A stretch of DNA of 64,000 bases from Acidimicrobiales bacterium (GCA_050633745.1 JBOEHD010000040.1:1435-65434); one strand, 5' to 3'. Counted from the first letter of the stretch, positions 32,759 through 51,488 are shown. Notes: generated from the letters alone by a model not told the origin. A program made the numbers and translations.

Positions 32759-33847
32759 TTATCCCGCTCGTCTTGCCATCTTGTCCGACAGAATGCTCAT
32801 CATTCCGCCAAGGCTGAAGTAGCCGAAGATCACTTCCGACATGGCCAGCATCTGGGCTCCGGTCGATCCGGGAAGAACGTCGCCGTAGCCGAGCGTGGTG
32901 AAGGTCACGACGCTGTAGTAGATGGGCGAGATCGGGGTCTCATAGTCTCCCCAATCGATATCGACCTGGGTGTACAACCCGGCGTAGATCATGGCCACAA
33001 GCACGGTCCACAGCGACCAGCGGGAAAGGGATCTGCCACAGTCCGAGGTGATCGACCACAGCTTGTAGAGCCGCTCGTGAGTCGGCGACTGAGTCCGGAA
33101 CTCATGGATGTAGTTCTCGTCCTGGATGTGCCGCCGCACCAGCCACGCGCCGGTGAAGTCCACATTCTGGATGTCGGCGTTGATCCAATCTGCGGAGGTG
33201 TAGCCGGTCACGTTTCGCAACTGGGCGCCACGCATGTCGGCGTCTCGAAACGTCGAGTTGGCCAACGCTGCTCCAGTTAGGTCAACGTCGGCCAGCATCG
33301 CTGAGGCGAAGACCGAATCGGTCAGGTTTGCGCCCAGCATCCGGGCCTGCTCAAGCTTGGCGGCCCGAAAGTCGCTACCGGTGAGGTCGGCTCCGGTAAA
33401 CGTTGTCCCGGTGCATTTTGCCCCGAAGAACAGCGCTCCGACGCCAACGGCCTGGCCAAATCCGGCTCGGTCGAGCACACCGTTTGTAAAGTCTGCGCCA
33501 GAGATCGTCGACCCCAGCAGCTCCACATCGGTGAGGTTTACGTTGTGCAGCAGGGCGTTGGTGAGGTTGGCCCCAACCAGTCTGGCGCCTGCGAAGTTAC
33601 AGCTAAGCAGTTCGGCATTTGAGAAGTCGATGCCGCTGAGGTCCAGCCCTGAAAAATCAACCTCGACGAAGCGAACGCCTGAAAGATCGAGTGGCTGCTC
33701 GGCCGCCGGCAGAATGTCGCCTCGGTCACGTCTGGCACACAACTCTCGTAGTGCCACATGATTCGGATCGTTGTTTCCCTGCGTCGGATGGTGGCCGTGC
33801 GCCGCGGCGCGAGCCAGAGCAGCCGCTTTCGCTGTCGGCAGTTTCAT
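32759..33847 (-). CDS. Pentapeptide-repeat domain fused to a 2TM potassium channel pore
   Basis: About 170 aa of A(D/N)LxG-type pentapeptide repeats (ADLTGSDFRAAKLEQARMLGANLTDSVF...). These are followed by TM-pore-TM with the K+ selectivity filter TTLGYGD. Confidence 0.8.
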   Translation of the reverse strand: MKLPTAKAAALARAAAHGHHPTQGNNDPNHVALRELCARRDRGDILPAAEQPLDLSGVRFVEVDFSGLDLSGIDFSNAELLSCNFAGARLVGANLTNALLHNVNLTDVELLGSTISGADFTNGVLDRAGFGQAVGVGALFFGAKCTGTTFTGADLTGSDFRAAKLEQARMLGANLTDSVFASAMLADVDLTGAALANSTFRDADMRGAQLRNVTGYTSADWINADIQNVDFTGAWLVRRHIQDENYIHEFRTQSPTHERLYKLWSITSDCGRSLSRWSLWTVLVAMIYAGLYTQVDIDWGDYETPISPIYYSVVTFTTLGYGDVLPGSTGAQMLAMSEVIFGYFSLGGMMSILSDKMARRAG

Positions 33848-37801: not shown

Positions 37802-38724
37802 CAAACCCCAATATTCGAGTCGGCATGTCGACCCCGTGGGATTTCTGGTCCCTTTCCGGTGAGGACCGGCAGGCCAGATTGAGCGCCGCGGTTGAGGGCG
37901 GTCTCACCCACATATTCTGTGCCGACCATGTCAGTTTCCATGGCGGCAACGGGTCGGACGGGATTGTGCAGATGGCCACCATCGCCGCCACCGAGCCCCG
38001 ACTCGATGTTTATGTCGGGGTGTTCCTGTTGGCTCTGCGGCATCCAGTGGTAGCCGCTCGCCAGATCGCCACCCTGGCCCAAGCGGCACCCGGGCGGGTG
38101 ACCATCGGGGTCGGCGTCGGAGGCGAAGATCGACATGAGTTCGAGGTATGTGGCGTTGACCCGGCGACACGCGGAAAGCGCACCGACGTGGCGCTCGATA
38201 TGGTCCGCAGGCTGCTGGCCGGCGAAACGGTTGACGGCGACGGAACCTTCTTCGACGTGAGCGAGGCGATGATCCGGCCGGCGCCCAAGCCAGCAGTCCC
38301 GTTCGTCGTCGGTGGTCGCTCCGATGCTGCAGTGCTTCGGGCAGGCCGCCTCGGCGATGGCTGGCTTGCCACGTGGTGCTCGCCTCGCCGCTTCGCCGAG
38401 GCTGTCGCTCTGGCGGAGACCACCGCAGCCGACGCCGGCCGAACCGATGTGCCGTGGCAACACGGGTTACAGCTGTGGCTGGGCGTTGGAGACAACGCCG
38501 AGGAGGGTCAGCGATACGTGGCAGACGCCATGGAGCGGTTCTACAAGCTGCCCTATGCCGCGTTCGCCAAGTACACCCCGTGCGGCACGCCAGCCGAGAT
38601 CGTCGAGTTCCTCAAGCCGTACATAGAGGCCGGCGCAACCACGTTCAACCTGACCACGGTGGGAGCGACCCCTGAAATCGAACTCGAAGCGTCTACTGAA
38701 ATCAGTTCGCTGCTGGCCGGCTGA
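37795..38724 (+). CDS. LLM class (luciferase-like) oxidoreductase, probably F420-dependent
   Basis: The sequence GLTHIFCADHVSFHGGNG...VGVFLLALRHPVVAARQIATLAQAAPGRVTIGVGVGGE is LLM-like. GTG 37795 overlaps the upstream stop. Confidence 0.8.
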   Translation: MVANPNIRVGMSTPWDFWSLSGEDRQARLSAAVEGGLTHIFCADHVSFHGGNGSDGIVQMATIAATEPRLDVYVGVFLLALRHPVVAARQIATLAQAAPGRVTIGVGVGGEDRHEFEVCGVDPATRGKRTDVALDMVRRLLAGETVDGDGTFFDVSEAMIRPAPKPAVPFVVGGRSDAAVLRAGRLGDGWLATWCSPRRFAEAVALAETTAADAGRTDVPWQHGLQLWLGVGDNAEEGQRYVADAMERFYKLPYAAFAKYTPCGTPAEIVEFLKPYIEAGATTFNLTTVGATPEIELEASTEISSLLAG

Positions 38725-38725
38725 C

Positions 38726-40732
38726 CTAGTCTCCGGCGGTTAGGAACTCGTCGGTGTTAAGCACCACAACCTTCGCTCCTCGACTTCTGGCTAGCTCCAC
38801 CATGTCTGCCGTTCCCCCTGGCCCGTCGCCTGCGGCACGGTTCCACAGGGCGAGGAGGGTCACGTCGGCGTTCTCTATGGCAAATGCCTTTTCCAACATC
38901 CACATGTTGCAGCGCTGGAACACGTAGTGCTTGTCGGCGGCGCTGACCCAAGTCGGCATCGGTTCGTCGAGAACGTCGGGGTTCAACTCGGTGCAGAGCC
39001 TGCGAAACCGTTCCGGCCACGTTCCGCCGCTGCCATCTACAGAGCGTTGAAGAAACTGACCTTCGGGCAGGGCTAGCACCGCTTCGGTCTCGAGGCCGAG
39101 CTCAGCGGCCACCTCGTGGAACAAGATATCGTTGCCGCTGGCCAAGCCAGCGATCCCGCTCACGGCCCCATCGGCATAGGATCTTTCTTCCTCGATCGCC
39201 GCGGCCAGCGCCGCTCTGGCGGCCGTTTCAGCTGCGGCGGGGAAACGGGGCTGCGCTCGTCCCGGATCATCGATCCGGTGACCGGTTGACACGATGATCC
39301 GCTTCCGCGGCTCGGCCGCGACAGGAATCGGCGGCACACCCGCAACCAGATCATCATCGGGCACACCGAGGGCTGCCAGGCTGGCGGCGGCCTTCTCCGA
39401 GCAGATGTCTAGGCGTTTGAAGAGAAGAAGTTGGGCCGCGGCCGATGCAATGTTGAAGTCCGCCTTTGTGCGCGCCGTTGCATCTCGGTAGCCCTGGGCA
39501 ACATGCTCGACCCGGTCTGAAGTCAGGAAACGGTGATCAGCGATACTGAGGTCAAGCCAGAGGTCGGTCTCGCCGGAGCGACGAGCACGGGCCTTAGCGG
39601 CGTCATGAGCTAACGCGGTAGCCGACAGTAGTTGTTCGCGCCGAGAGGTTTGGCGGCGCAGGTGGCTCGCCGCATCGTCTTCATCCTCGAACCGAGCCTC
39701 CCAGACATCGGGGTACCGCCCCGCTAGTTCGAGCAGGATCGTGCTCATCGATAGGGCGTTAACACCCGGATAGTAGTGGTTGATATCTTCAAGAAACCCC
39801 GCCCGGTATGCGGTTAGACAATCGAGCAACTGCGCCGATCGTAAGGCCTGGCGTTGCTGTTCAATAGGGTCATCGACAGCGATCCACTCGGCAGTCCACT
39901 GTGTCTTGTGGTTCCGTGCCCGCAGAGCCAAAGCTTCAGCCCGATCGACTCTGGACGCCTCGCCATTGGTGACCCGGGCGATCGCCTCCTCCGAGCGCGC
40001 CATGTCGCCAGCCCGGTGGTAGATGGTGGCAAGCGCCAGGTTCGCTTCAACATCATCGGGTCGCGCCGTTCGCACCCTTTCCCAGGTCGCTCCGGCTCCG
40101 GTGTGGGCCTGCAACTTTGAAAGCGCCTGGCCGACGAGACGTTGACCGGCGAGATTCCAGCGCTCAACTCGTGCCTCGTCGCCGAGTAAACCCAGCTGCC
40201 CGACCCGCTTGTTTTTGCGTGCTCGCTCGACCGCCTCGATGAACTCCCGAGGTGTGCTGAGGTATGCGACTCCGTCGCGCCGCTCCAGGCTGGGGATCAG
40301 CTGGTAGACCGGACTGTCGGTGTTGTCGCTCTTGAGCGTCGCTTCGATCGTTCGGCTCAACTCATTGCGAGATGTCTCCGGATCGTTTGGGTCGTAGCGA
40401 AGATACCGGTCGGTCTTGAGGTCAAAGGGCACCGCATCGACTCTGCTGTTGATCAGAATCGTTGGGCGGTGGCGTAGCGCATGCCGCACCCCGAGTTCGT
40501 AGTAGACGTTGGCGTTGTGAATAGAGATGTCGGCGATCACCAAGTCGGCGGTGAGCAGCCGCTCCATCATGTCGGCCCGGATATTGCCCGATTCGACTAT
40601 CGGTCCAGTGGTTCCCCATTCGGTGTCCGGCCGCTCGTCGAGGACCGGTTTGATGATCTGGTCTTCCACTCGGTCGAAGTCCACCCCGCTCTTCTCACCG
40701 AACGGTCTGACGATAAAAACGTAGGTCTGCAT
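38726..40732 (-). CDS. Three-region conflict-system-like protein: N-terminal TIR/nucleoside-deoxyribosyltransferase-like Rossmannoid domain (DUF4071-like), helical TPR-like middle, C-terminal SLOG (DprA/LOG-like) domain
   Basis: N-terminus: MQTYVFIVRPFGEKSG...DLVIADISIHNANVYYELGVRHALRHRPTILI (beta-strand/Gly loop, conserved Glu79). Middle: helical repeats (NLALATIYHRAGDMARSEEAIARV, INHYYPGVNALSM). C-terminus (aa 477-662): RIIVSTGHR...SGIAGLASGNDILFHE...GDGPGGTADMVELARSRGAKVVVL. These resemble the DprA GLAxGID and LOG PGGxGTxxE motifs. The start lies 9 nt after the patatin stop. Confidence 0.8.
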   Translation of the reverse strand: MQTYVFIVRPFGEKSGVDFDRVEDQIIKPVLDERPDTEWGTTGPIVESGNIRADMMERLLTADLVIADISIHNANVYYELGVRHALRHRPTILINSRVDAVPFDLKTDRYLRYDPNDPETSRNELSRTIEATLKSDNTDSPVYQLIPSLERRDGVAYLSTPREFIEAVERARKNKRVGQLGLLGDEARVERWNLAGQRLVGQALSKLQAHTGAGATWERVRTARPDDVEANLALATIYHRAGDMARSEEAIARVTNGEASRVDRAEALALRARNHKTQWTAEWIAVDDPIEQQRQALRSAQLLDCLTAYRAGFLEDINHYYPGVNALSMSTILLELAGRYPDVWEARFEDEDDAASHLRRQTSRREQLLSATALAHDAAKARARRSGETDLWLDLSIADHRFLTSDRVEHVAQGYRDATARTKADFNIASAAAQLLLFKRLDICSEKAAASLAALGVPDDDLVAGVPPIPVAAEPRKRIIVSTGHRIDDPGRAQPRFPAAAETAARAALAAAIEEERSYADGAVSGIAGLASGNDILFHEVAAELGLETEAVLALPEGQFLQRSVDGSGGTWPERFRRLCTELNPDVLDEPMPTWVSAADKHYVFQRCNMWMLEKAFAIENADVTLLALWNRAAGDGPGGTADMVELARSRGAKVVVLNTDEFLTAGD

Positions 40733-40741
40733 GTCACCGAC

Positions 40742-41929
40742 TCAGCTGTGTATTGGCAGGTCGACAAAGCGCCCGAAGTGCGCAAGGTCGACGTCGTGGG
40801 CCAGGTTCTTGCCGATGCGGGTGAGATCGGGCATGGCATCGACCGAATCGAGAGCGCTTACGTCGTCGGCTTTGATATCGCCCAAACCCCGCTCGGCTAG
40901 CCAGGCGTCGGTGAGGGTGGCGTTGTACCTGGCATAGAGGAAATCTCGGTCCTGGTCGTCCTCGAGCGGTAGCGGGTTGCCTGCACCATCCTTGGGGATC
41001 AAGTCACCGACTTCGTTGTCGATGTGGTCTCCGGTGGTGCAGCGACCGACGGTTCGAGCGTTGACGTCCTGGTCGTAGGCGGCCTGGCTCATAAGCGAAC
41101 TGAGCGTATTGACCGCAGACGAGGCCAGGTTCGATTCGGGGTCATCGATGGACGCGCCAAGGGTGGCGGCCGAGCCGGTACCGAGCGAAACGACCAGAAG
41201 GTTTCGTTCACCCTTCTGCCAGCCGAGGTTGTATGCCGGTTCGGTGGCCATCCGAGCCATCAGGAACGCTGGGTTGTTGTAGGTCGTCGTGCCGCCGTCG
41301 ACGAAGACGAACGCCTTGTTGTCGTTGCCCTCTTCCCAGTAGATGACCTCGGGCGGAAAGTACACCGGTGCGGCGGTGCTGGCTCGAACCAGTTTCCATA
41401 GCGGCACGTTGAGGTTGCAGTCTGGCCTGTCAACGTCGTTGTACTTGGCAGCGGGGTTGCTGGTCACCGGCCAGGCGGAGTCGGTGGTCGCATTGCGGGT
41501 GACGACCAGCAACAGCGACTTCAGATCCTGAGGGTGCAGTGTCGATTCGCTGCCGTAGACCTCTTTTAGCTTCTGCTCCAGGGGTCCGTTCTGGTAGAGG
41601 GCGTTCCAGATCTTCCAGCGGCGGCGGGTGAACACCACCTGACCGAACGCCTCGTAGAACTCTAAGATCTCGGCCACTGAAAGGCCTCGCGCCACGCCGG
41701 CGGCGATGATGGCGCCGGTACTGGTGCCGGAGACGTAGTCGAAGAACTGACACAACCGAAGATCGGGCTCGTTGTAGTGCGCCCGTAGTTGACTCTCGAT
41801 TTCCTGGAGCACCTGCAGGGTCAAGATCCCTCGAATCCCGCCCCCGTCGAGAGCAAGCATGCGACGAGGTTGATCGACCTCATATCGTGCTCGCAGACCC
41901 CCCCACTGCTCTGGTTGTTCTAGCGCCAT
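40742..41929 (-). CDS. Patatin-like phospholipase with about 120-aa acidic C-terminal extension
   Basis: The oxyanion loop DGGGIRG (aa 28-34), nucleophile elbow GTSTG (Ser70) and catalytic Asp in FVDGGTTTYNNP (Asp211) are all intact. A strong SD (AGGAGG) lies 5 nt upstream of ATG 41929. Confidence 0.9.
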   Translation of the reverse strand: MALEQPEQWGGLRARYEVDQPRRMLALDGGGIRGILTLQVLQEIESQLRAHYNEPDLRLCQFFDYVSGTSTGAIIAAGVARGLSVAEILEFYEAFGQVVFTRRRWKIWNALYQNGPLEQKLKEVYGSESTLHPQDLKSLLLVVTRNATTDSAWPVTSNPAAKYNDVDRPDCNLNVPLWKLVRASTAAPVYFPPEVIYWEEGNDNKAFVFVDGGTTTYNNPAFLMARMATEPAYNLGWQKGERNLLVVSLGTGSAATLGASIDDPESNLASSAVNTLSSLMSQAAYDQDVNARTVGRCTTGDHIDNEVGDLIPKDGAGNPLPLEDDQDRDFLYARYNATLTDAWLAERGLGDIKADDVSALDSVDAMPDLTRIGKNLAHDVDLAHFGRFVDLPIHS

Positions 41930-41986
41930 TTGCCCCTCCTGCTTCAGTCGCTAATGCCTATAGTCGTGCTCATCGGTGCCGGTTGC

Positions 41987-42043
41987 TGGTGTTCAGTGTG
42001 TGGTGTTCGGTGTGTGGTGTTCCGTCTGTGGTGAATTTCTGTG
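41987..42043. repeat. 14-bp tandem direct repeat, 3 good copies plus 1 degenerate copy, in the divergent intergenic region
   Basis: TGGTGTTCAGTGTG / TGGTGTTCGGTGTG / TGGTGTTCCGTCTG / TGGTGAATTTCTGTG. Confidence 0.85.
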
Positions 42044-42073
42044 TTTGGGCGATAGCCCGAACCGGTCGACGCA

Positions 42074-42093
42074 CAGATTGTGGCAGATTGCGG
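42074..42093. repeat. 10-bp tandem duplication in the same intergenic region
   Basis: CAGATTGTGG / CAGATTGCGG. Confidence 0.75.
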
Positions 42094-42180
42094 CGCTGTC
42101 TGCTCATGCTGGTGTCTCTGTCTTGAGCTCGGCATACCGGGGGAACCACCTGTTCCAGCGATCCTGACTACCATCAGCCA

Positions 42181-43149
42181 TTGGTGGTAGGAACAGCGGA
42201 ACCGCAGGCCGAAGCGAATAGGGTGCTCGACCACGTCTGGGAGCGTCAGCGTGGCTGGTCGATCGGCGCCGACCTGGCGAAGGCTCAGGTCGAGAGGGCC
42301 CGCATCGGCAACCTGCTACTCATCGTCGGAGCTGCGGTCTTCGGTGCGCTTGCGGCCCAATCCGACTGGCTACCTTCCGGCTTCCAGCGAGGCCTCAGTC
42401 TGGCCGCCTCTGTCCTGCTGATGGTGGCCGGGTTTGTGCAAAGCCACTATCTGACCGCCCTGAAGGTCAAAGCCTGGACCGCAGCCCGGAGCGCTTCGGA
42501 GACGCTGAAGGCCCTCGTCTATGTGTACATGGCTGGCGTGAGCGTCGATACGAGCTCAGACAACAGCCACGAAGAAAGCCAGGTCGACGCTGCGCTGTTG
42601 GACCAGCTGACGATGGTGGAGAGCCGGGCATTTGTGCTCGGAGCCAACCGAGCCGACCCAGATAACAAACCGCTGCCAACCGTCGCCAGCGTTCCCGACT
42701 ACCGTGCCAACCGCACCGAGGAGCAGGCCCAGTGGCACAGCACCCGGCGAGGCGAGCACGACCGGCGAGCGAGGTTACTGCGAGCTGCCCAGCTTGGGCT
42801 GACGGTACTCGGTTCGGTCCTTGCGCTGATCGCCGGCGTCTCCGCCCAACCGGGGATCGATTCCTGGGTCGCCGCGGTCGCCGCCATGGGGGCAGCTGTG
42901 GCCGCCCACCTTGGAGCCACCCAGTACGACCGCATCGCTCAGAGCTATGAGGTCACCGCAACCCTGCTCGAACGGGAAGTGGTTCGGTTCGACTCACTGC
43001 AGCAACGGTCCGCGACAGCGGTCGACGAGGGTGCTGGTCTGATCGGCGGCAATGCCGGCCAAACCCTCGTCCGCAATACCGAGGAGATCCTGGCCAGGCA
43101 GAACGATGGCTGGATCGACCTGATCCAAAAGGCAACCGAGCCGAACTAG
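42181..43149 (+). CDS. Membrane protein with two tandem SLATT-like (DUF4231-like) 2TM modules
   Basis: Module 1: TM IGNLLLIVGAAVFGALAA, TM LSLAASVLLMVAGFVQSHYL, then helix KAWTAARSASETLKALVYVYMAG. Module 2: YRANRTEEQAQWHSTRRGEHDRRARLLRAAQLGLTVLGSVLALIAGV, TM WVAAVAAMGAAVAAHLGA, then helix YDRIAQSYEVTATLLEREVVRF. The start is uncertain (TTG 42181, GTG 42184 or GTG 42223). Confidence 0.7.
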   Translation: MVVGTAEPQAEANRVLDHVWERQRGWSIGADLAKAQVERARIGNLLLIVGAAVFGALAAQSDWLPSGFQRGLSLAASVLLMVAGFVQSHYLTALKVKAWTAARSASETLKALVYVYMAGVSVDTSSDNSHEESQVDAALLDQLTMVESRAFVLGANRADPDNKPLPTVASVPDYRANRTEEQAQWHSTRRGEHDRRARLLRAAQLGLTVLGSVLALIAGVSAQPGIDSWVAAVAAMGAAVAAHLGATQYDRIAQSYEVTATLLEREVVRFDSLQQRSATAVDEGAGLIGGNAGQTLVRNTEEILARQNDGWIDLIQKATEPN

Positions 43150-43213: not shown

Positions 43214-43855
43214 ATGGAACTTGGCGATGCTATAAAGACCGCGGTGACCTCTCGGTACTACACCGATGAACCGGTCACAGACGAACAACTGCGAACGGCG
43301 TTCGACTACGCCCGATACGCACCTCAGGGTGGCAACCGTCAGCCGGTTCGATTCATAGTCGTGCGTGACCAGGACACCAGAAACCAATTGGCGGAGTGGT
43401 ATCGGGTCCCGTGGAAGGCGTACCTCGAAGGGGCCCGTGGCGGCGAGATCGACATCGGCGCCGAGAAGCTCGACCGTGCCTTGCGCAACGCCGACCATTT
43501 CGCAGATCACCTGCAAGACGTTCCCGTGATGGTCATCGCCTGCGCTCATCTCGACGGCGTTCATCCCACCGATACCGAACTTGAGCGTCTGTCGGTTGTG
43601 GGTGGCGGCTCGATCTACCCGGCGGTGCAGAACTTTTTGCTCGGCTGCCGTGAGAGCGGAATCGGTGCTGCGCTAACCACGCTGCTTTGTATGTTCGAAC
43701 CGCAGGTCAAGGAGCTGCTGTCGATCCCCGACGACGTGATCACCGCCGCTCATATCGCGGTTGGGCACCGGCCGAAGGACTTCCCAAAGAAGCTCGATCG
43801 CATCGGGCTCGACGAGGTCGTGTACAGCGACACCTGGGGCAACTCCACATACTGA
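43214..43855 (+). CDS. Nitroreductase family protein
   Basis: AIKTAVTSRYYTDEPVTDEQLRTAFDYARYAPQGGNRQPVRFIVVRD is the typical nitroreductase N-terminal FMN-binding segment. Confidence 0.85.
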   Translation: MELGDAIKTAVTSRYYTDEPVTDEQLRTAFDYARYAPQGGNRQPVRFIVVRDQDTRNQLAEWYRVPWKAYLEGARGGEIDIGAEKLDRALRNADHFADHLQDVPVMVIACAHLDGVHPTDTELERLSVVGGGSIYPAVQNFLLGCRESGIGAALTTLLCMFEPQVKELLSIPDDVITAAHIAVGHRPKDFPKKLDRIGLDEVVYSDTWGNSTY

Positions 43856-43954: not shown

Positions 43955-44398
43955 ATGGCCGAGGAGAATCTAGTCCATTGCATCTACACCAGTTCGCTGA
44001 CCGCAGGGTACGACAGCAGCGAGCTCGACCTCATCTTGAAGAAGGCTAGGCACAACAACGAAGCGCTCGACGTCAGCGGCATGCTGCTGTTCGATGAGGG
44101 CTCCTTTTTTCAGATCCTCGAGGGCGAAGAGCCGAACGTCATGACTCTTTTCGAGAAGATCTCGCTCGACGAACGCCACGAACATATGGTGAAGATCATC
44201 TTCGAGCCGATCGAGGAACGCTCCTTCTACAACTGGAGTATGGGCGTCGCTCATATGACCCGACAGGAGCTGGCAGCGGTTCCCGGACTCAACGACTTCT
44301 TCGCAGACGGCAACAGCCTGGCCCAGCTTGACGCGGGCAGGGCCAAGAGCCTCTTGGCGGCCTTTCGCGATGGGCGCTACCGCTCCGCCATCAACTAA
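43955..44398 (+). CDS. Stand-alone BLUF domain blue-light photoreceptor
   Basis: In LVHCIYTSS...VSGMLLFDEGSFFQILEGEE...DERHEHMVKII...FYNWSMG, the conserved Tyr, Gln and Trp/Met positions of BLUF are all present. Confidence 0.85.
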   Translation: MAEENLVHCIYTSSLTAGYDSSELDLILKKARHNNEALDVSGMLLFDEGSFFQILEGEEPNVMTLFEKISLDERHEHMVKIIFEPIEERSFYNWSMGVAHMTRQELAAVPGLNDFFADGNSLAQLDAGRAKSLLAAFRDGRYRSAIN

Positions 44399-49730: not shown

Positions 49731-51488
49731 GTGAACCTACGCGTTGTACCGATCGGACTGCGGCTGGTGATGGCCGTGTCGGTGCCGGTCGTAGCGCTTC
49801 TGATCGCCATCGGGTTCCAGGTCAACGCTCGCTCGGTGACCGCCCGTGAGGCCACAGACGAGCTGACTCGCATCGAGACCCTCGAGACCCTGGCGACGCT
49901 GCAGACAGCCAGCGTGCTGCCCGACCTAGGCGTCCTGCGACAGGAGATGAGCGCCGAAGGCAACGGTTCGTTCTTAATCGAGATGGTCGTGAGCGGCTAC
50001 GGGGAAATGCTAGGCGGCGCCTACCTCGGCGCCGACGATGCCCGGGCCGAAATGAGCGTCGCCGCCAGCGGCAACATCACCGCCGAGGCCGAACAGGTCT
50101 TCGATCGTCAACGAGAGACGTCGGAAGCCCTGCTGGAGACCTTCGTTGGTGGGCAACCCCTTACCGATGAGCTGATCGCCGACGCTGAGCTGGCCCGTAT
50201 GGAAGCCGACCTGGCGTTCGCCGAACTGGCCGTCGGATCGGCGTCCGATGCATGGATCACCTACATCGGGGCGATCGATGCCGGCCGTTCCACCGCTGTC
50301 GAATACGCCTACGTGATGTCGAGCCTGATCGGACTCGGAGCTATCGACGAAGCACGCCTCGCCGAGCTGGGCGGGATCCGATCCAACGCCACCCAACGAG
50401 TGATCATGGGCCTCCAGCCAGACCTGCAGATCCAGGTGCAAAATGTGCTGACGTCGGACTCGATGGACGTGTGGGACGCTGCCGTTGCAGCCGCGCGAGA
50501 GATCGTGGCAGGCAGAGCTGAACCGTGGCAGATCAACGACGTGGCCACACTCACCGGCGACGCTTTCCAGCTACAACTGCAAATCGACACGATTACCGCT
50601 GAAGCGGTCGACCGGGTACGAAGCGAGCTTGTCACGGTCGAGACCGACGCCAAGAGCGAGCGGACCCGTCTTCTGCTGCTAGCAGCTGCGCTGCTTGCCA
50701 TCACCGCCGGGCTGACCGTCTGGATTCTGCAGTCGGTGATGTCGCCGCTGCGGCGTCTGACCAAGCGAGCCGCTGAGCTTGCCGACGGGGAAATCGACGG
50801 CCCCCGGGTCGACCATGGACGCCACGATGCCCTCGCGGAGTTAGGCGAAACCATCGAAGACGTCGCCGAAGGGCTCCGACACCTCGGGCAGCAATTCGAA
50901 GCGATGGCCGAAGGAAACCTCGATGACGTCAGCCTGGAATCGGCGGGCCCCGGTTTCGTTGGCGAATTTGTACAGGACTGGGTGCAAGAGGTCCGCCAAG
51001 CCAGCGACGCCCTAACCGCCGAGGCACTTCACGATGAACTAACCGGCTTGTTGAATCGCCGTGGTCTTATGAGGCACCTCGGACGGATGGCCGGGGGGCC
51101 AGAGGTCGCTGTTGTCTATGTCGATCTCGACAAGTTCAAGGCGGTCAACGACCAGCACGGCCACCATGCGGGCGACGCGGTACTCAAGGTGATCGGCCAG
51201 CGACTGCTGGGCTTTGTCCGAACAGAAGACCCGGTCTGTCGTCTCGGTGGCGATGAGTTCGTGCTCTTGGTTTCGGGCGTCGACCGACAAGATATGCCAA
51301 TCTTTATCAGCAGAATCGAACTGGGACTGTCGGAACCAATCTCCTTTGAAGGCACGCGTCACAGCGTTGGGTGCTCGGTCGGCGTCGGCTGGCTTGGCCC
51401 CGGCGACCTTCTCGAACCGATTCTGGAAGAGGCCGATCGAGCCATGCTCGAGGTCAAGTCGCGACGCGGCGAGTCAATCCCCCGCTAG
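49731..51488 (+). CDS. Membrane sensor diguanylate cyclase (periplasmic-type sensor region, HAMP, GGDEF)
   Basis: Two TM segments flank a roughly 280-aa extracytoplasmic region. A HAMP-like linker follows (MSPLRRLTKRAAELADGEI). The GGDEF domain carries HDELTGLLNRRG and RLGGDEFVLL. Confidence 0.9.
   Translation: MNLRVVPIGLRLVMAVSVPVVALLIAIGFQVNARSVTAREATDELTRIETLETLATLQTASVLPDLGVLRQEMSAEGNGSFLIEMVVSGYGEMLGGAYLGADDARAEMSVAASGNITAEAEQVFDRQRETSEALLETFVGGQPLTDELIADAELARMEADLAFAELAVGSASDAWITYIGAIDAGRSTAVEYAYVMSSLIGLGAIDEARLAELGGIRSNATQRVIMGLQPDLQIQVQNVLTSDSMDVWDAAVAAAREIVAGRAEPWQINDVATLTGDAFQLQLQIDTITAEAVDRVRSELVTVETDAKSERTRLLLLAAALLAITAGLTVWILQSVMSPLRRLTKRAAELADGEIDGPRVDHGRHDALAELGETIEDVAEGLRHLGQQFEAMAEGNLDDVSLESAGPGFVGEFVQDWVQEVRQASDALTAEALHDELTGLLNRRGLMRHLGRMAGGPEVAVVYVDLDKFKAVNDQHGHHAGDAVLKVIGQRLLGFVRTEDPVCRLGGDEFVLLVSGVDRQDMPIFISRIELGLSEPISFEGTRHSVGCSVGVGWLGPGDLLEPILEEADRAMLEVKSRRGESIPR

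What the first reader, a model, noticed from the sequence alone, without database searches (positions are those of the whole stretch)
38726..43149. Candidate undescribed three-gene conflict (anti-phage-type) module: patatin phospholipase + Rossmannoid-TPR-SLOG protein + divergent double-SLATT membrane protein
Three adjacent genes carry domain types that established comparative genomics links to nucleotide-signal-driven immunity. (i) A patatin lipase has all catalytic motifs intact (DGGGIRG, GTSTG, DGG); patatin is the CapV-type effector of CBASS. (ii) A 668-aa protein ends in a SLOG-like domain (GLASGND and GPGGTADMVE motifs); SLOG is the ligand-sensing domain of Thoeris ThsA. (iii) A protein has two SLATT-like 2TM modules; SLATT was defined as the 'SMODS and SLOG-associating' membrane effector. 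The patatin and SLOG genes are 9 nt apart on one strand. The SLATT gene is divergent across a repeat-bearing 250-bp region. No CD-NTase/SMODS cyclase, SAVED, CARF or canonical ThsB-type TIR gene is present anywhere in the window. The signal source, if any, would therefore have to be the TIR/deoxyribosyltransferase-like N-terminal domain of the SLOG protein, or be host or phage derived. I cannot match this gene set to a named defence system from memory. The locus is wedged tightly between ordinary metabolic genes: an LLM oxidoreductase ends at 38724 and a nitroreductase starts at 43214. There is no integrase, transposase or tRNA nearby.
Basis: partly seen in the sequence, partly recalled or inferred. 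Interest (0 to 1): 0.9.

Follow-up and report, generated by a model that had tools for sequence, protein, structure and literature searches.

The report
Patatin, nucleotide-sensor and SLATT defence-type module
Three neighbouring genes in an Acidimicrobiales genome (a membrane-degrading lipase, a nucleotide-cleaving and nucleotide-sensing scaffold protein, and a pore-type membrane protein) form a real, widespread but experimentally untested module of the Thoeris-like, NAD-signal class of bacterial immunity, so it is a good candidate variant rather than a new kind of system.

Summary
Profile and structure searches confirm each domain call. These are a patatin lipase, a 668-aa protein built as MilB/DNPH1-like N-glycosidase + TPR-S + YpsA-like SLOG, and a 4-TM double SLATT. 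The 668-aa family is large: at least 573 species genomes and 426 clusters at 50% identity. The conserved core is two genes. A dedicated patatin subfamily lies next to the 668-aa gene in 56 of 80 genomes. In the reverse direction, 55 of 65 patatin-anchored metagenome loci carry the partner. SLATT is an occasional but genuine third part. It is adjacent in 11 of 160 distant loci and is fused to the end of the 668-aa protein in two relatives, 38% identical to the window's SLATT. Other fusions (TIR, SIR2-ATPase, STAND NTPase) and enriched TIR neighbours place the family in conflict systems. "Undescribed" is overstated. TPR-S-centred NAD-signal systems with patatin and YpsA partners were predicted in 2020, and TIR-containing relatives (BcTir/Tpr, type VIII Thoeris) defend against phage. 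This TIR-less, SLOG-fused, patatin/SLATT form has no name and no experiment. Verdict: a new variant of a known kind. Interest 0.5.

The parts
40742..41929 (-). Patatin-like phospholipase (395 aa) of a dedicated partner subfamily. It has the oxyanion loop DGGGIRG, the nucleophile S70 in GTSTG, and D211 in DGG.
   Evidence: Pfam Patatin E 6e-29. PADLOC CBASS-type phospholipase effector E 4e-42. NCBIfam CBASS_lipase scores 114 bits, below its cut-off of 200. The catalytic motifs are invariant in the partner patatins. The subfamily is conserved over its full length.
40313..40732 (-). N-terminal alpha/beta domain (aa 1-140) of the 668-aa protein. It is MilB/DNPH1-like (DrHyd, nucleoside 2-deoxyribosyltransferase/TIR-related) and is a putative N-glycosidase. 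It carries the motif N73-x-N75-x-x-x-E79.
   Evidence: The domain profile matches DNPH1 with the catalytic Glu aligned (E 0.017). PADLOC TIR effector E 1.5e-7. Homologues give weak Nuc_deoxyrib_tr and TIR_2 hits. N73, N75 and E79 are invariant in 81/81 sequences. The spacing equals BcTpr N80/N82/E86, whose mutation abolished defence.
39338..40255 (-). All-helical TPR region (aa 160-465) that includes the TPR-S sensor repeats.
   Evidence: Pfam TPR-S PF20308 E 1e-10 at aa 213-329, matched by 26 of 27 family members. The AlphaFold model is helical with pLDDT above 90. Foldseek returns TPR superhelices.
38729..39304 (-). C-terminal SLOG domain (aa 477-668) of the YpsA clade. It has the G533-x-D535 signature and the GDGPGGT loop. 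The stop codon is at 38726-38728.
   Evidence: The domain model (pLDDT 89.9) matches YpsA 2nx2 (E 1e-4, TM 0.63/0.69), then DprA 3uqz and ShosA 8zva. The GxD/E signature of the YpsA clade is described in PMC6459960. G533, D535 and F538 are invariant in 81/81, and G639/G640 in 80/81.
41930..42180 (.). Divergent intergenic spacer (251 nt) between patatin and SLATT. It presumably holds both promoters. It contains a 14-nt unit repeated three times at 41980-42033.
   Evidence: Sequence and repeat search. No sigma-70 consensus site was found in the spacer. The repeat is absent from the shorter spacers of related genomes L086 and L087.
42181..43149 (+). Double SLATT membrane protein (322 aa; the NCBI start is 3 nt later). 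Module 1 (DUF4231/SLATT_3-like) covers aa 31-120. Module 2 (SLATT_1) covers aa 174-311. There are four TM helices.
   Evidence: Pfam and NCBIfam scores are above cut-off. TM segments lie at 42-63, 68-86, 199-220 and 229-247. It is collinear with the C-terminal 284 aa of the fusion protein P0165 (38% identity, E 2e-38).

Best explanation
This is a chromosomal conflict (abortive-infection-type) module of the TPR-S / Thoeris-like class that works through NAD- or nucleotide-derived signals.

The 668-aa protein is the sensor-transducer. It joins a MilB/DNPH1-like N-glycosidase domain, a TPR-S scaffold and a YpsA-like SLOG nucleotide-binding domain. These are three parts that other genomes encode as two genes, a 'core Tpr' and a stand-alone SLOG.

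It is co-transcribed with a CapV-like patatin phospholipase. In this lineage it is also paired with a 4-TM double SLATT protein.

Proposed mechanism (inferred, not shown):
1. An infection or stress cue acts on the TPR-S scaffold and relieves autoinhibition.
2. The N-glycosidase domain cleaves NAD+ or another nucleotide into a small-molecule product.
3. The SLOG domain binds that product, or processes it, and drives assembly.
4. The patatin lipase and the SLATT protein are then switched on and destroy membrane integrity, which stops the cell before a phage completes its cycle.

Shown here: the domain identities, the conservation of every catalytic and ligand-binding motif, the gene linkages and the fusions.

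Inferred: the trigger, the identity of the signal, which domain makes it and which reads it, and the anti-phage outcome.
For: Domain identities:
- Pfam, PADLOC and NCBIfam assignments for all three proteins.
- DNPH1 profile match for the N-terminal domain.
- YpsA/DprA/ShosA structural matches for the C-terminal domain.
- Four TM helices in SLATT.

Conservation:
- The patatin Ser-Asp dyad, NxNxxxE and the SLOG residues G533, D535, G639 and G640 are invariant or nearly so. The other positions of the SLOG loops vary.

Patatin linkage:
- Patatin is adjacent in 56 of 80 species genomes from more than 10 phyla.
- In 49 of these it lies directly upstream on the same strand, with a median gap of 16 nt.
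- In the reverse direction, 55 of 65 patatin-anchored metagenome loci carry the partner.

Modularity:
- Separate 'core Tpr' genes and SLOG-only genes lie beside the same patatin subfamily.
- A canonical TIR-TPR-S protein replaces the 668-aa partner in L185.

SLATT linkage:
- Six SLATT ORFs were found in the 80 genome loci, and all six are immediate neighbours of the 668-aa gene.
- Five more were found in the metagenome loci. These include the tight operons core Tpr-double SLATT-patatin (L177, L175) and 668-aa gene-patatin-SLATT (L246).
- P0163 and P0165 fuse the 668-aa architecture to a double SLATT homologous to the window's gene.

Immune character:
- Other relatives are fused to TIR (P0127), to SIR2 plus an ABC-type ATPase (P0157), or to ParA/NB-ARC STAND modules (P0180, P0185).
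- TIR_2 is the most frequent Pfam family among 145 neighbouring ORFs, with 13 hits.

Experimental analogues:
- BcTpr (N-glycosidase-TPR) needs N82 and E86 for defence.
- Type VIII Thoeris ThsI (CMP-hydrolase-like + TPR) and type VII ThsH (SLATT) respond to cADPR and sometimes share one operon.
Against: - No experiment exists for this variant.
- The window has no TIR gene, so the source of any signal is unproven.
- The two published accounts of the related 'core Tpr' protein disagree. Liu et al. call it a signal generator and NADase. Yirmiya et al. call it an effector that senses cADPR made by the TIR.
- TIR + 'SLOG Patatin' and TIR + 'SLOG and 4TM' operons gave no defence in E. coli.
- The locus sits among metabolic genes, with no GC anomaly and no mobile-element genes.
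- It is kept at the same site in related Acidimicrobiales at 58-88% protein identity. That is less typical of fast-turnover defence islands.
- SLATT is absent from about 93% of distant loci.
- The N-domain assignment rests on weak sequence scores (E 0.003-0.05) plus motif logic. I could not run a domain-level structure search for it.
Confidence: 0.55

Rival explanations
1. Orphan effector module. The 668-aa protein makes no signal. Like ThsI of type VIII Thoeris, it senses cADPR or another ADPR-derived molecule through TPR-S and/or SLOG. The signal would be made by a TIR protein encoded elsewhere in the genome, or by the phage. The protein then acts itself as a nucleotide-depleting N-glycosidase and also licenses patatin and SLATT.
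For: Yirmiya et al. assign ThsI (CMP-hydrolase-like + TPR) the effector role and the TIR the generator role, and cADPR triggers both ThsI and the SLATT effector ThsH. TIR genes are the only enriched neighbours, at 13 of 145 ORFs, and TIR-like ORFs lie within 8 kb in 18 of 80 loci. P0127 carries a fused TIR. L185 pairs the patatin with TIR-TPR-S.
Against: About four fifths of loci, including the whole 64-kb window, have no TIR nearby. A dedicated, translationally coupled patatin partner argues for a self-contained unit. In L185 the canonical TIR occupies the position of the N-glycosidase domain, which suggests the two domains do the same job. Liu et al. report that the BcTpr N-domain itself makes a cADPR isomer.
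Confidence: 0.2
2. Physiological, non-immune regulator. The module would be an NAD(H)- or nucleotide-status sensor that controls membrane-lipid remodelling, stress-induced dormancy or developmental cell death. The precedent is the role of B. subtilis YpsA in oxidative stress and cell division.
For: The flanks are metabolic. There is no compositional anomaly. The position is kept by vertical inheritance in related Acidimicrobiales. YpsA-clade proteins have a housekeeping-type role in Firmicutes. The family is abundant in soil lineages with complex lifestyles (Acidobacteriota, Myxococcota, Bacteroidota).
Against: The family has a patchy distribution across many phyla. Effectors are swapped between loci: patatin, alpha/beta-hydrolase lipase, metallophosphoesterase, GIY-YIG and SLATT. 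Relatives are fused to SIR2, TIR and STAND NTPases. The closest characterised relatives protect against phage.
Confidence: 0.15
3. Only the patatin + 668-aa pair is functional as a unit. On this view the SLATT gene in the window is an independent neighbour kept by lineage inertia.
For: SLATT is divergently transcribed. It is absent from the closest non-syntenic relatives P0003, P0006 and P0008. The relatives that keep it also keep the unrelated nitroreductase and BLUF genes.
Against: All six SLATT ORFs found in the 80 genome loci are immediate neighbours of the 668-aa gene, and none lies elsewhere in the flanks. There are five further cases, including overlapping-gene operons. The fusion proteins P0163 and P0165 carry a double SLATT that is 38% identical to the window's gene along its whole length.
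Confidence: 0.1

Closest known systems
TPR-S-centred NAD+-derived-signal conflict systems ('core Tpr' assemblies) predicted by Burroughs & Aravind 2020. I know these only through the summary in the Liu et al. 2023 preprint and citation 39 of Yirmiya et al..
   Same: Both have an N-glycosidase (DrHyd/MilB-like) + TPR-S core. The catalogued partners include patatin (4 of 78 operons), YspA/SLOG (5 of 78), LSDAT, calcineurin and TIR, and domains are 'fused and rearranged'. Here I found the same partner set: patatin, SLOG, an alpha/beta-hydrolase lipase, a metallophosphoesterase, LSDAT and TIR.
   Different: I could not read the 2020 paper, so I cannot say whether the exact fused N-glycosidase-TPR-S-SLOG protein with a patatin and a double SLATT is listed. 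The scale found here (at least 573 species, with patatin the dominant partner) is much larger than the 4 patatin cases cited.
Type VIII Thoeris (ThsB TIR + ThsI 'CMP hydrolase and TPR'), Yirmiya et al. bioRxiv 2025; and BcTir/BcTpr, Liu et al. bioRxiv 2023
   Same: ThsI and BcTpr have the same N-glycosidase + TPR architecture as aa 1-465 of the 668-aa protein. The BcTpr catalytic N80/N82/E86 spacing equals N73/N75/E79 here. ThsI-sized paralogues of about 415-455 aa lie next to family members (L025, L026, L146, L177).
   Different: Those systems need an adjacent TIR gene and have no SLOG, patatin or SLATT as a rule. Here there is no TIR, a SLOG is fused to the C-terminus, and a patatin is the constant partner.
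Type VII Thoeris effector ThsH and CBASS 2TM SLATT effectors
   Same: All are SLATT membrane effectors thought to oligomerise on binding a nucleotide signal. ThsH and ThsI occasionally share one operon, which parallels SLATT plus the ThsI-like protein here.
   Different: The window's protein is a tandem of two SLATT modules (4 TM). It is not next to a TIR or a CD-NTase.
CBASS CapV patatin phospholipase
   Same: Both have the patatin fold with an intact Ser-Asp dyad. The best PADLOC and NCBIfam matches for the window's patatin are CBASS lipases.
   Different: The window's patatin scores 114 bits against the 200-bit equivalog cut-off. I found no CD-NTase match, although I did not scan the whole window for one. 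It belongs to a separate subfamily with its own conserved C-terminal region that travels with the TPR-S protein.
Type I Thoeris ThsA (SIR2-SLOG), and the unverified TIR + 'SLOG Patatin' and TIR + 'SLOG and 4TM' candidates of Yirmiya et al.
   Same: Both follow the logic of a SLOG signal-binding domain coupled to a killing effector, namely patatin or a 4-TM protein.
   Different: Here the SLOG is fused to the N-glycosidase-TPR-S protein rather than to the effector. Structurally it is closest to YpsA, DprA and ShosA. The candidate operons gave no defence in E. coli.
B. subtilis YpsA (PDB 2nx2)
   Same: It is the best structural match of the C-terminal domain, and both share the GxD/E signature.
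   Different: YpsA is a stand-alone protein linked to cell division and oxidative stress. Sequence identity is only 13%.

Membership tests
Patatin-like phospholipase (PF01734) | Profile match above the curated cut-off. | tested here: met
   102 bits against 27.7.
Patatin-like phospholipase (PF01734) | Gly-rich oxyanion loop, GxSxG nucleophile and DG[GA] aspartate. | tested here: met
   DGGGIRG, GTSTG and D211-GG are present and invariant in the partner patatins.
CBASS (CapV equivalog) | Score above the NCBIfam CBASS_lipase equivalog cut-off. | tested here: not met
   114.2 bits against a cut-off of 200.
CBASS (CapV equivalog) | Adjacent CD-NTase cyclase. | tested here: inconclusive
   PADLOC on the three module proteins hit only effector-type models. 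The 13 flanking genes scanned with Pfam are metabolic or signalling genes. I did not scan every ORF of the window.
Thoeris (any type) | A TIR-domain (ThsB) signal-generator gene in the operon. | tested here: not met
   No TIR-like ORF in the 64-kb window by phmmer with 14 neighbour TIR proteins. TIR genes are present in only about 16-22% of related loci.
Thoeris (any type) | Phage-induced production of an ADPR-derived signal that activates the effector. | not testable with these tools
   This needs LC-MS of infected lysates.
'Core Tpr' / ThsI / BcTpr (N-glycosidase + TPR-S) | TPR-S repeats (PF20308). | tested here: met
   42.4 bits against 27.6. 26 of 27 family members match.
'Core Tpr' / ThsI / BcTpr (N-glycosidase + TPR-S) | N-terminal MilB/DNPH1-like N-glycosidase domain with a catalytic Glu in the NxNxxxE motif. 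| tested here: met
   DNPH1 profile match with the Glu aligned (E 0.017). The motif is invariant in 81/81. The spacing matches BcTpr N80/N82/E86. ThsI-sized paralogues share the domain at 31-40% identity. The sequence scores are weak, and I could not run a domain-level fold search.
'Core Tpr' / ThsI / BcTpr (N-glycosidase + TPR-S) | Direct sequence comparison with ThsI or BcTpr themselves. | not tested
SLOG superfamily, YpsA clade | Rossmannoid SLOG fold. | tested here: met
   The top three PDB matches are YpsA (TM 0.63/0.69), DprA and ShosA. No Pfam SLOG model matches.
SLOG superfamily, YpsA clade | GxD/E substrate-binding signature after the Gly-rich loop. | tested here: met
   G533-N-D535; both G533 and D535 are invariant in 81/81.
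SLATT (SMODS and SLOG-associating 2TM effector) | Profile match above cut-off and two TM helices per module. | tested here: met
   SLATT_1 scores 66.1 bits against 26.3, DUF4231 56.6 against 24.7, and NCBIfam SLATT_1 81.1 against 41. The TM pairs lie at 42-86 and 199-247.
SLATT (SMODS and SLOG-associating 2TM effector) | Genomic association with a SLOG or SMODS protein. | tested here: met
   It is divergent to the SLOG-bearing operon here. It is adjacent in 11 distant loci. It is fused to the SLOG protein in P0163 and P0165.
Catalogued anti-phage systems (PADLOC-DB v2.0.0) | A model for the 668-aa protein, or a system definition that combines these genes. | tested here: not met
   Only generic effector hits were returned: phospholipase, weak TIR, weak ShosA and weak 2TM. 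The database dates from 2023. I could not run current DefenseFinder or PADLOC system calling.

The most novel reading that the evidence does not exclude
This is a self-contained, TIR-independent immune signalling module. A MilB/DNPH1-type N-glycosidase, not a TIR, would generate the nucleotide-derived second messenger. A YpsA-like SLOG fused in cis would read or mature that messenger. Two different membrane-attacking effectors, a dedicated patatin lipase and a 4-TM double SLATT, would execute the response. If so, the signal-generator role in Thoeris-like immunity is not restricted to TIR domains.
Probability: 0.3. Interest if true: 0.7.

Novelty: new variant of a known kind. Interest (0 to 1): 0.5.

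Why it matters
The family is large. It occurs in at least 573 species genomes across more than ten phyla, many of them poorly studied soil lineages. It combines parts that are each known from validated immune systems: a ThsI-like core, a SLOG, a CapV-like lipase and a SLATT. The arrangement lacks the canonical signal generator.

Working it out would address an open disagreement about the 'core Tpr' N-glycosidase. One account makes it a signal maker (Liu et al.) and the other a signal-activated effector (Yirmiya et al.). It would also show how a stand-alone patatin is switched on without a CD-NTase, and what YpsA-clade SLOG domains bind.

Cultured carriers exist for experiments: Pyxidicoccus caerfyrddinensis CA032A, Arenibacter certesii DSM 19833, Segetibacter sp. 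3557_3 and Bradyrhizobium japonicum SZCCT0231.

Tried and rejected
- Foldseek with the full-length model returned only TPR proteins (SPY, OGT), so it said nothing about the end domains. I re-modelled the C-terminal domain alone. The prediction cap left no job for the N-terminal domain.
- Pfam gave no hit for either end domain, neither for the query nor for 27 relatives.
- phmmer against PDB sequences gave nothing meaningful. The C-domain profile against PDB gave only a spurious polyphosphate kinase 2 P-loop match.
- The exact-sequence contig look-up for the window's own protein returned nothing.
- Burroughs et al. 2015 and Burroughs & Aravind 2020 are not held, by DOI or by PMC id. What I say about them is second-hand.
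- The viral-contig scan found only N-domain homologues and no full-length relative. There is therefore no evidence that the module is phage-borne.
- The 14-nt spacer repeat is absent from related genomes. I dropped it as a candidate conserved operator.
- The 659-aa gene upstream of patatin in L084/L085 has no similarity to the 668-aa protein and no Pfam hit. I did not pursue it.
- Greedy longest-ORF gene calling in these GC-rich loci produced spurious antisense ORFs (cluster 1). I excluded them from the neighbour counts.

Full report
**Observation.**
- A 668-aa gene lies at 38726-40732 (-).
- A 395-aa patatin gene lies at 40742-41929 (-), 9 nt upstream of it.
- A 322-aa gene lies at 42181-43149 (+), divergent across a 251-nt spacer.

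A luciferase-like oxidoreductase ends at 38724 and a nitroreductase starts at 43214. The window comes from an Acidimicrobiales MAG: the 668-aa protein is 100% identical to an NCBI entry on a 72-kb contig. GC content is flat across the locus. There is no tRNA and no Rfam hit in the window. The 13 flanking genes scanned within about 10 kb are metabolic or signalling genes. They include CoA-transferase III, amidohydrolase, PhyH, gamma-glutamyltranspeptidase, two luciferase-like oxidoreductases, BLUF, MetE-like proteins and a HAMP-GGDEF protein. None is an integrase or transposase.

**Domain identities.**
- *Patatin.* Pfam Patatin scores 102 bits. PADLOC CBASS-type phospholipase effector gives E 4e-42. 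NCBIfam CBASS_lipase scores only 114 bits against a cut-off of 200, so the protein is CapV-like but not a CapV equivalog.
- *SLATT.* DUF4231 covers aa 31-120 and SLATT_1 covers aa 174-311, both above cut-off. There are four hydrophobic helices in two pairs.
- *668-aa protein, middle.* The only Pfam hit is TPR-S (PF20308, aa 213-329), a model that Pfam names Tetratricopeptide Repeats-Sensor.
- *668-aa protein, overall model.* An AlphaFold model built from 27 homologues (pLDDT 86.7) shows an alpha/beta domain at aa 1-135, a long helical repeat region, and a second alpha/beta domain at aa 477-668.
- *668-aa protein, C-terminal domain.* Modelled alone (pLDDT 89.9), its three best PDB matches are B. 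subtilis YpsA (TM 0.63/0.69), DprA and ShosA, which belong to or resemble the SLOG superfamily. It carries the YpsA-clade GxD/E signature as G533-N-D535. The SLOG call is therefore right.
- *668-aa protein, N-terminal domain.* Its profile matches DNPH1/Rcl best. The score is weak (E 0.017), but the invariant E79 of YELG aligns on the DNPH1 catalytic Glu. Homologues give weak Nuc_deoxyrib_tr and TIR_2 hits, and PADLOC gives a TIR-effector hit (E 1.5e-7). The motif N73-x-N75-x-x-x-E79 has the same spacing as N80/N82/E86 of BcTpr, a MilB-like N-glycosidase-TPR protein in which N82A and E86A abolish phage defence.

**Is it a module?**
The 668-aa family is large and full-length conserved.
- More than 1,800 hits came from the word-indexed search.
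- There are 426 clusters at 50% identity with E <= 1e-30.
- At least 573 relatives occur among GTDB species genomes. They span Acidobacteriota, Bacteroidota, Pseudomonadota, Myxococcota, Actinomycetota, Cyanobacteriota, Planctomycetota, Verrucomicrobiota, Nitrospirota, Gemmatimonadota and others.

In the 80 best loci, a close patatin homologue (E 1e-57 to 1e-153) is adjacent in 56. In 49 of these it lies directly upstream on the same strand, with a median gap of 16 nt. I then anchored on the patatin subfamily in metagenomes. Of 65 loci with enough downstream sequence, 55 carry the partner. The patatin Ser-Asp dyad and the N-glycosidase motif are invariant. The key Gly and Asp residues of the SLOG loops are invariant or nearly so.

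The metagenome loci also show that the 668-aa protein is a fusion. Many loci instead encode a protein of about 435-455 aa (N-glycosidase-TPR, the 'core Tpr') plus a separate SLOG-only protein of about 180-220 aa beside the same patatin. One locus (L185) pairs the patatin with a canonical TIR-TPR-S protein. Loci that lack patatin sometimes carry other hydrolases in its place. Examples are an alpha/beta-hydrolase lipase, a metallophosphoesterase and a GIY-YIG protein.

**SLATT.**
The window's double SLATT has only three detectable relatives. Two of them sit in syntenic Acidimicrobiales contigs with the same flanking genes. In L086 the protein identities to the window are 88% for patatin, 79% for the 668-aa protein and 63% for SLATT. 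On its own that could be lineage inertia.

Independent evidence is stronger.
- All six SLATT ORFs found in the 80 genome loci are immediate neighbours of the 668-aa gene. Five lie directly downstream, and one lies upstream in place of patatin. They come from Flavobacteriaceae and Betaproteobacteria.
- Five more occur in the metagenome set. They include the overlapping-gene operon core Tpr-double SLATT-patatin (L177, L175), the operon 668-aa gene-patatin-SLATT (L246), and a SLOG-only + SLATT pair (L226).
- Two family members, P0163 and P0165 (about 990 aa), are fusions of the whole 668-aa architecture to a C-terminal double SLATT. The window's SLATT aligns with that part end to end (38% identity, E 2e-38).

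SLATT is therefore a genuine but facultative third component.

**Conflict-system character.**
- Other fusions join the family to TIR (P0127), to SIR2 plus an ABC-type ATPase (P0157), and to ParA/NB-ARC STAND modules (P0180, P0185, L010).
- Among 145 ORFs at positions ±1 to ±3 around the module in the genome loci, TIR_2 is the most frequent Pfam family (13 ORFs). DUF4062 follows with 4. The rest are scattered housekeeping families.
- The SLATT-fusion locus lies beside an LSDAT gene and a DUF4062-NACHT-WD40 protein.
- Against this, the window's own locus has no defence neighbours and is stably inherited.

**Comparison with what is known.**
The Liu et al. 2023 preprint summarises Burroughs & Aravind 2020. 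According to it, 78 'core Tpr' operons were already catalogued with TIR (28), YspA (5), patatin (4), LSDAT and calcineurin partners, with domains 'fused and rearranged'.
- BcTir/BcTpr protects against phage, and the authors attribute cADPR-isomer synthesis and NAD+ depletion to the BcTpr N-domain.
- Yirmiya et al. 2025 verified type VIII Thoeris (TIR + ThsI 'CMP hydrolase and TPR') and type VII Thoeris (TIR + SLATT ThsH).
- They showed that both respond to canonical cADPR made by the TIR, and noted rare operons that hold both effectors.
- Their supplement lists TIR + 'SLOG Patatin' and TIR + 'SLOG and 4TM' candidates that gave no defence in E. coli.

The locus fails the defining test for Thoeris, because it has no TIR gene. 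For CBASS, the lipase scores below the equivalog cut-off and no CD-NTase was seen, although I did not scan the whole window for one. PADLOC-DB v2 has no model for the 668-aa protein. The locus is best filed as a TIR-less, SLOG-fused variant of the TPR-S class with patatin and SLATT effectors. It was predicted in outline but has no name and no experiment.

**Mechanism.**
My best account is that the 668-aa protein is a sensor-transducer. Its N-glycosidase domain acts on NAD+ or a nucleotide. The position equivalence with TIR in L185 and the BcTpr data support this. Its TPR-S and SLOG parts gate or read the product. Patatin and SLATT are the membrane-destroying effectors, which makes this an abortive-infection logic.
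- *Shown:* the domain identities, motif conservation, operon linkage, modular splitting and fusion.
- *Inferred:* the trigger, the chemistry, the direction of signalling and the anti-phage outcome.

The main rival is that the protein only receives a signal made by a TIR encoded elsewhere, as ThsI does. A non-immune, NAD-status-linked membrane or stress function cannot be excluded.

**Verdict.**
Novelty: a new variant of a known kind. Interest 0.5. It is a well-defined, widespread and testable candidate that could settle how the 'core Tpr' glycosidase works, but it would not surprise specialists in nucleotide-signal immunity.

Noticed in passing
window 41980-42033: A 14-nt unit (GGTGTTCnGTGTGT-like) is repeated three times in tandem in the patatin/SLATT spacer. 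It is missing from the shorter spacers of the related contigs L086 and L087, so it is a lineage-specific expansion rather than a conserved operator.
   Followed up: yes
P0163, P0165 (L249:5001-7994, L251:119-3082); P0127; P0157; P0180, P0185: These are fusion proteins of the 668-aa architecture. P0163 and P0165 add a double SLATT, P0127 adds a C-terminal TIR, P0157 adds SIR2 plus an ABC-type ATPase, and P0180 and P0185 add N-terminal ParA/NB-ARC STAND modules. The SLATT-fusion gene has an LSDAT (SLOG-family) gene directly upstream and a DUF4062-NACHT-WD40 gene nearby.
   Followed up: partly
L089-L168 (IMG/VR viral contigs), e.g. L106:5950-6777 and L146:5989-7245: 127 viral or prophage contigs encode proteins of 230-320 aa that carry only the N-glycosidase-like domain (28-40% identity, weak Pfam Nuc_deoxyrib_tr). 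One 82-kb viral contig encodes a 418-aa 'core Tpr' (N-domain + TPR-S). Their role, whether defence cargo or counter-defence, is unknown.
   Followed up: partly
L084:2790-4769 and L085:1338-3317: An unannotated 659-aa gene overlaps the start of the patatin gene by 4 nt, which makes a three-gene operon in the P0008 lineage. It has no Pfam hit and no similarity to the 668-aa protein. It may be an additional component.
   Followed up: partly
L185:1419-2768: In this locus the dedicated patatin subfamily is followed by a canonical TIR_2-TPR-S protein (449 aa) instead of the N-glycosidase-TPR-S-SLOG protein. This is a domain displacement, and it suggests that the TIR and the MilB-like domain do equivalent jobs.
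   Followed up: partly
L226:1909-2948 (-): A SLOG-only gene (194 aa) overlaps a single SLATT gene (152 aa) by 4 nt, convergent with the patatin gene. An N-domain gene lies divergent on the other side of the patatin. This is a fully split version of the module.
   Followed up: no
window versus L086: Between the window and its syntenic relative L086, patatin is 88% identical and the N-terminus of the 668-aa protein is 79% identical, but SLATT is only 63% identical. The membrane component evolves much faster.
   Followed up: no
window 32759-33847 (-): This ORF combines pentapeptide repeats with a C-terminal Ion_trans_2 channel domain. It is an unusual fusion and is unrelated to the finding.
   Followed up: no
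window 43955-44398 (+) and 49731-51488 (+): A stand-alone BLUF blue-light sensor lies two genes downstream of SLATT, and its position is conserved in the relatives L086 and L087. A HAMP-GGDEF diguanylate cyclase lies 6.5 kb downstream. Nothing links either one to the module.
   Followed up: no
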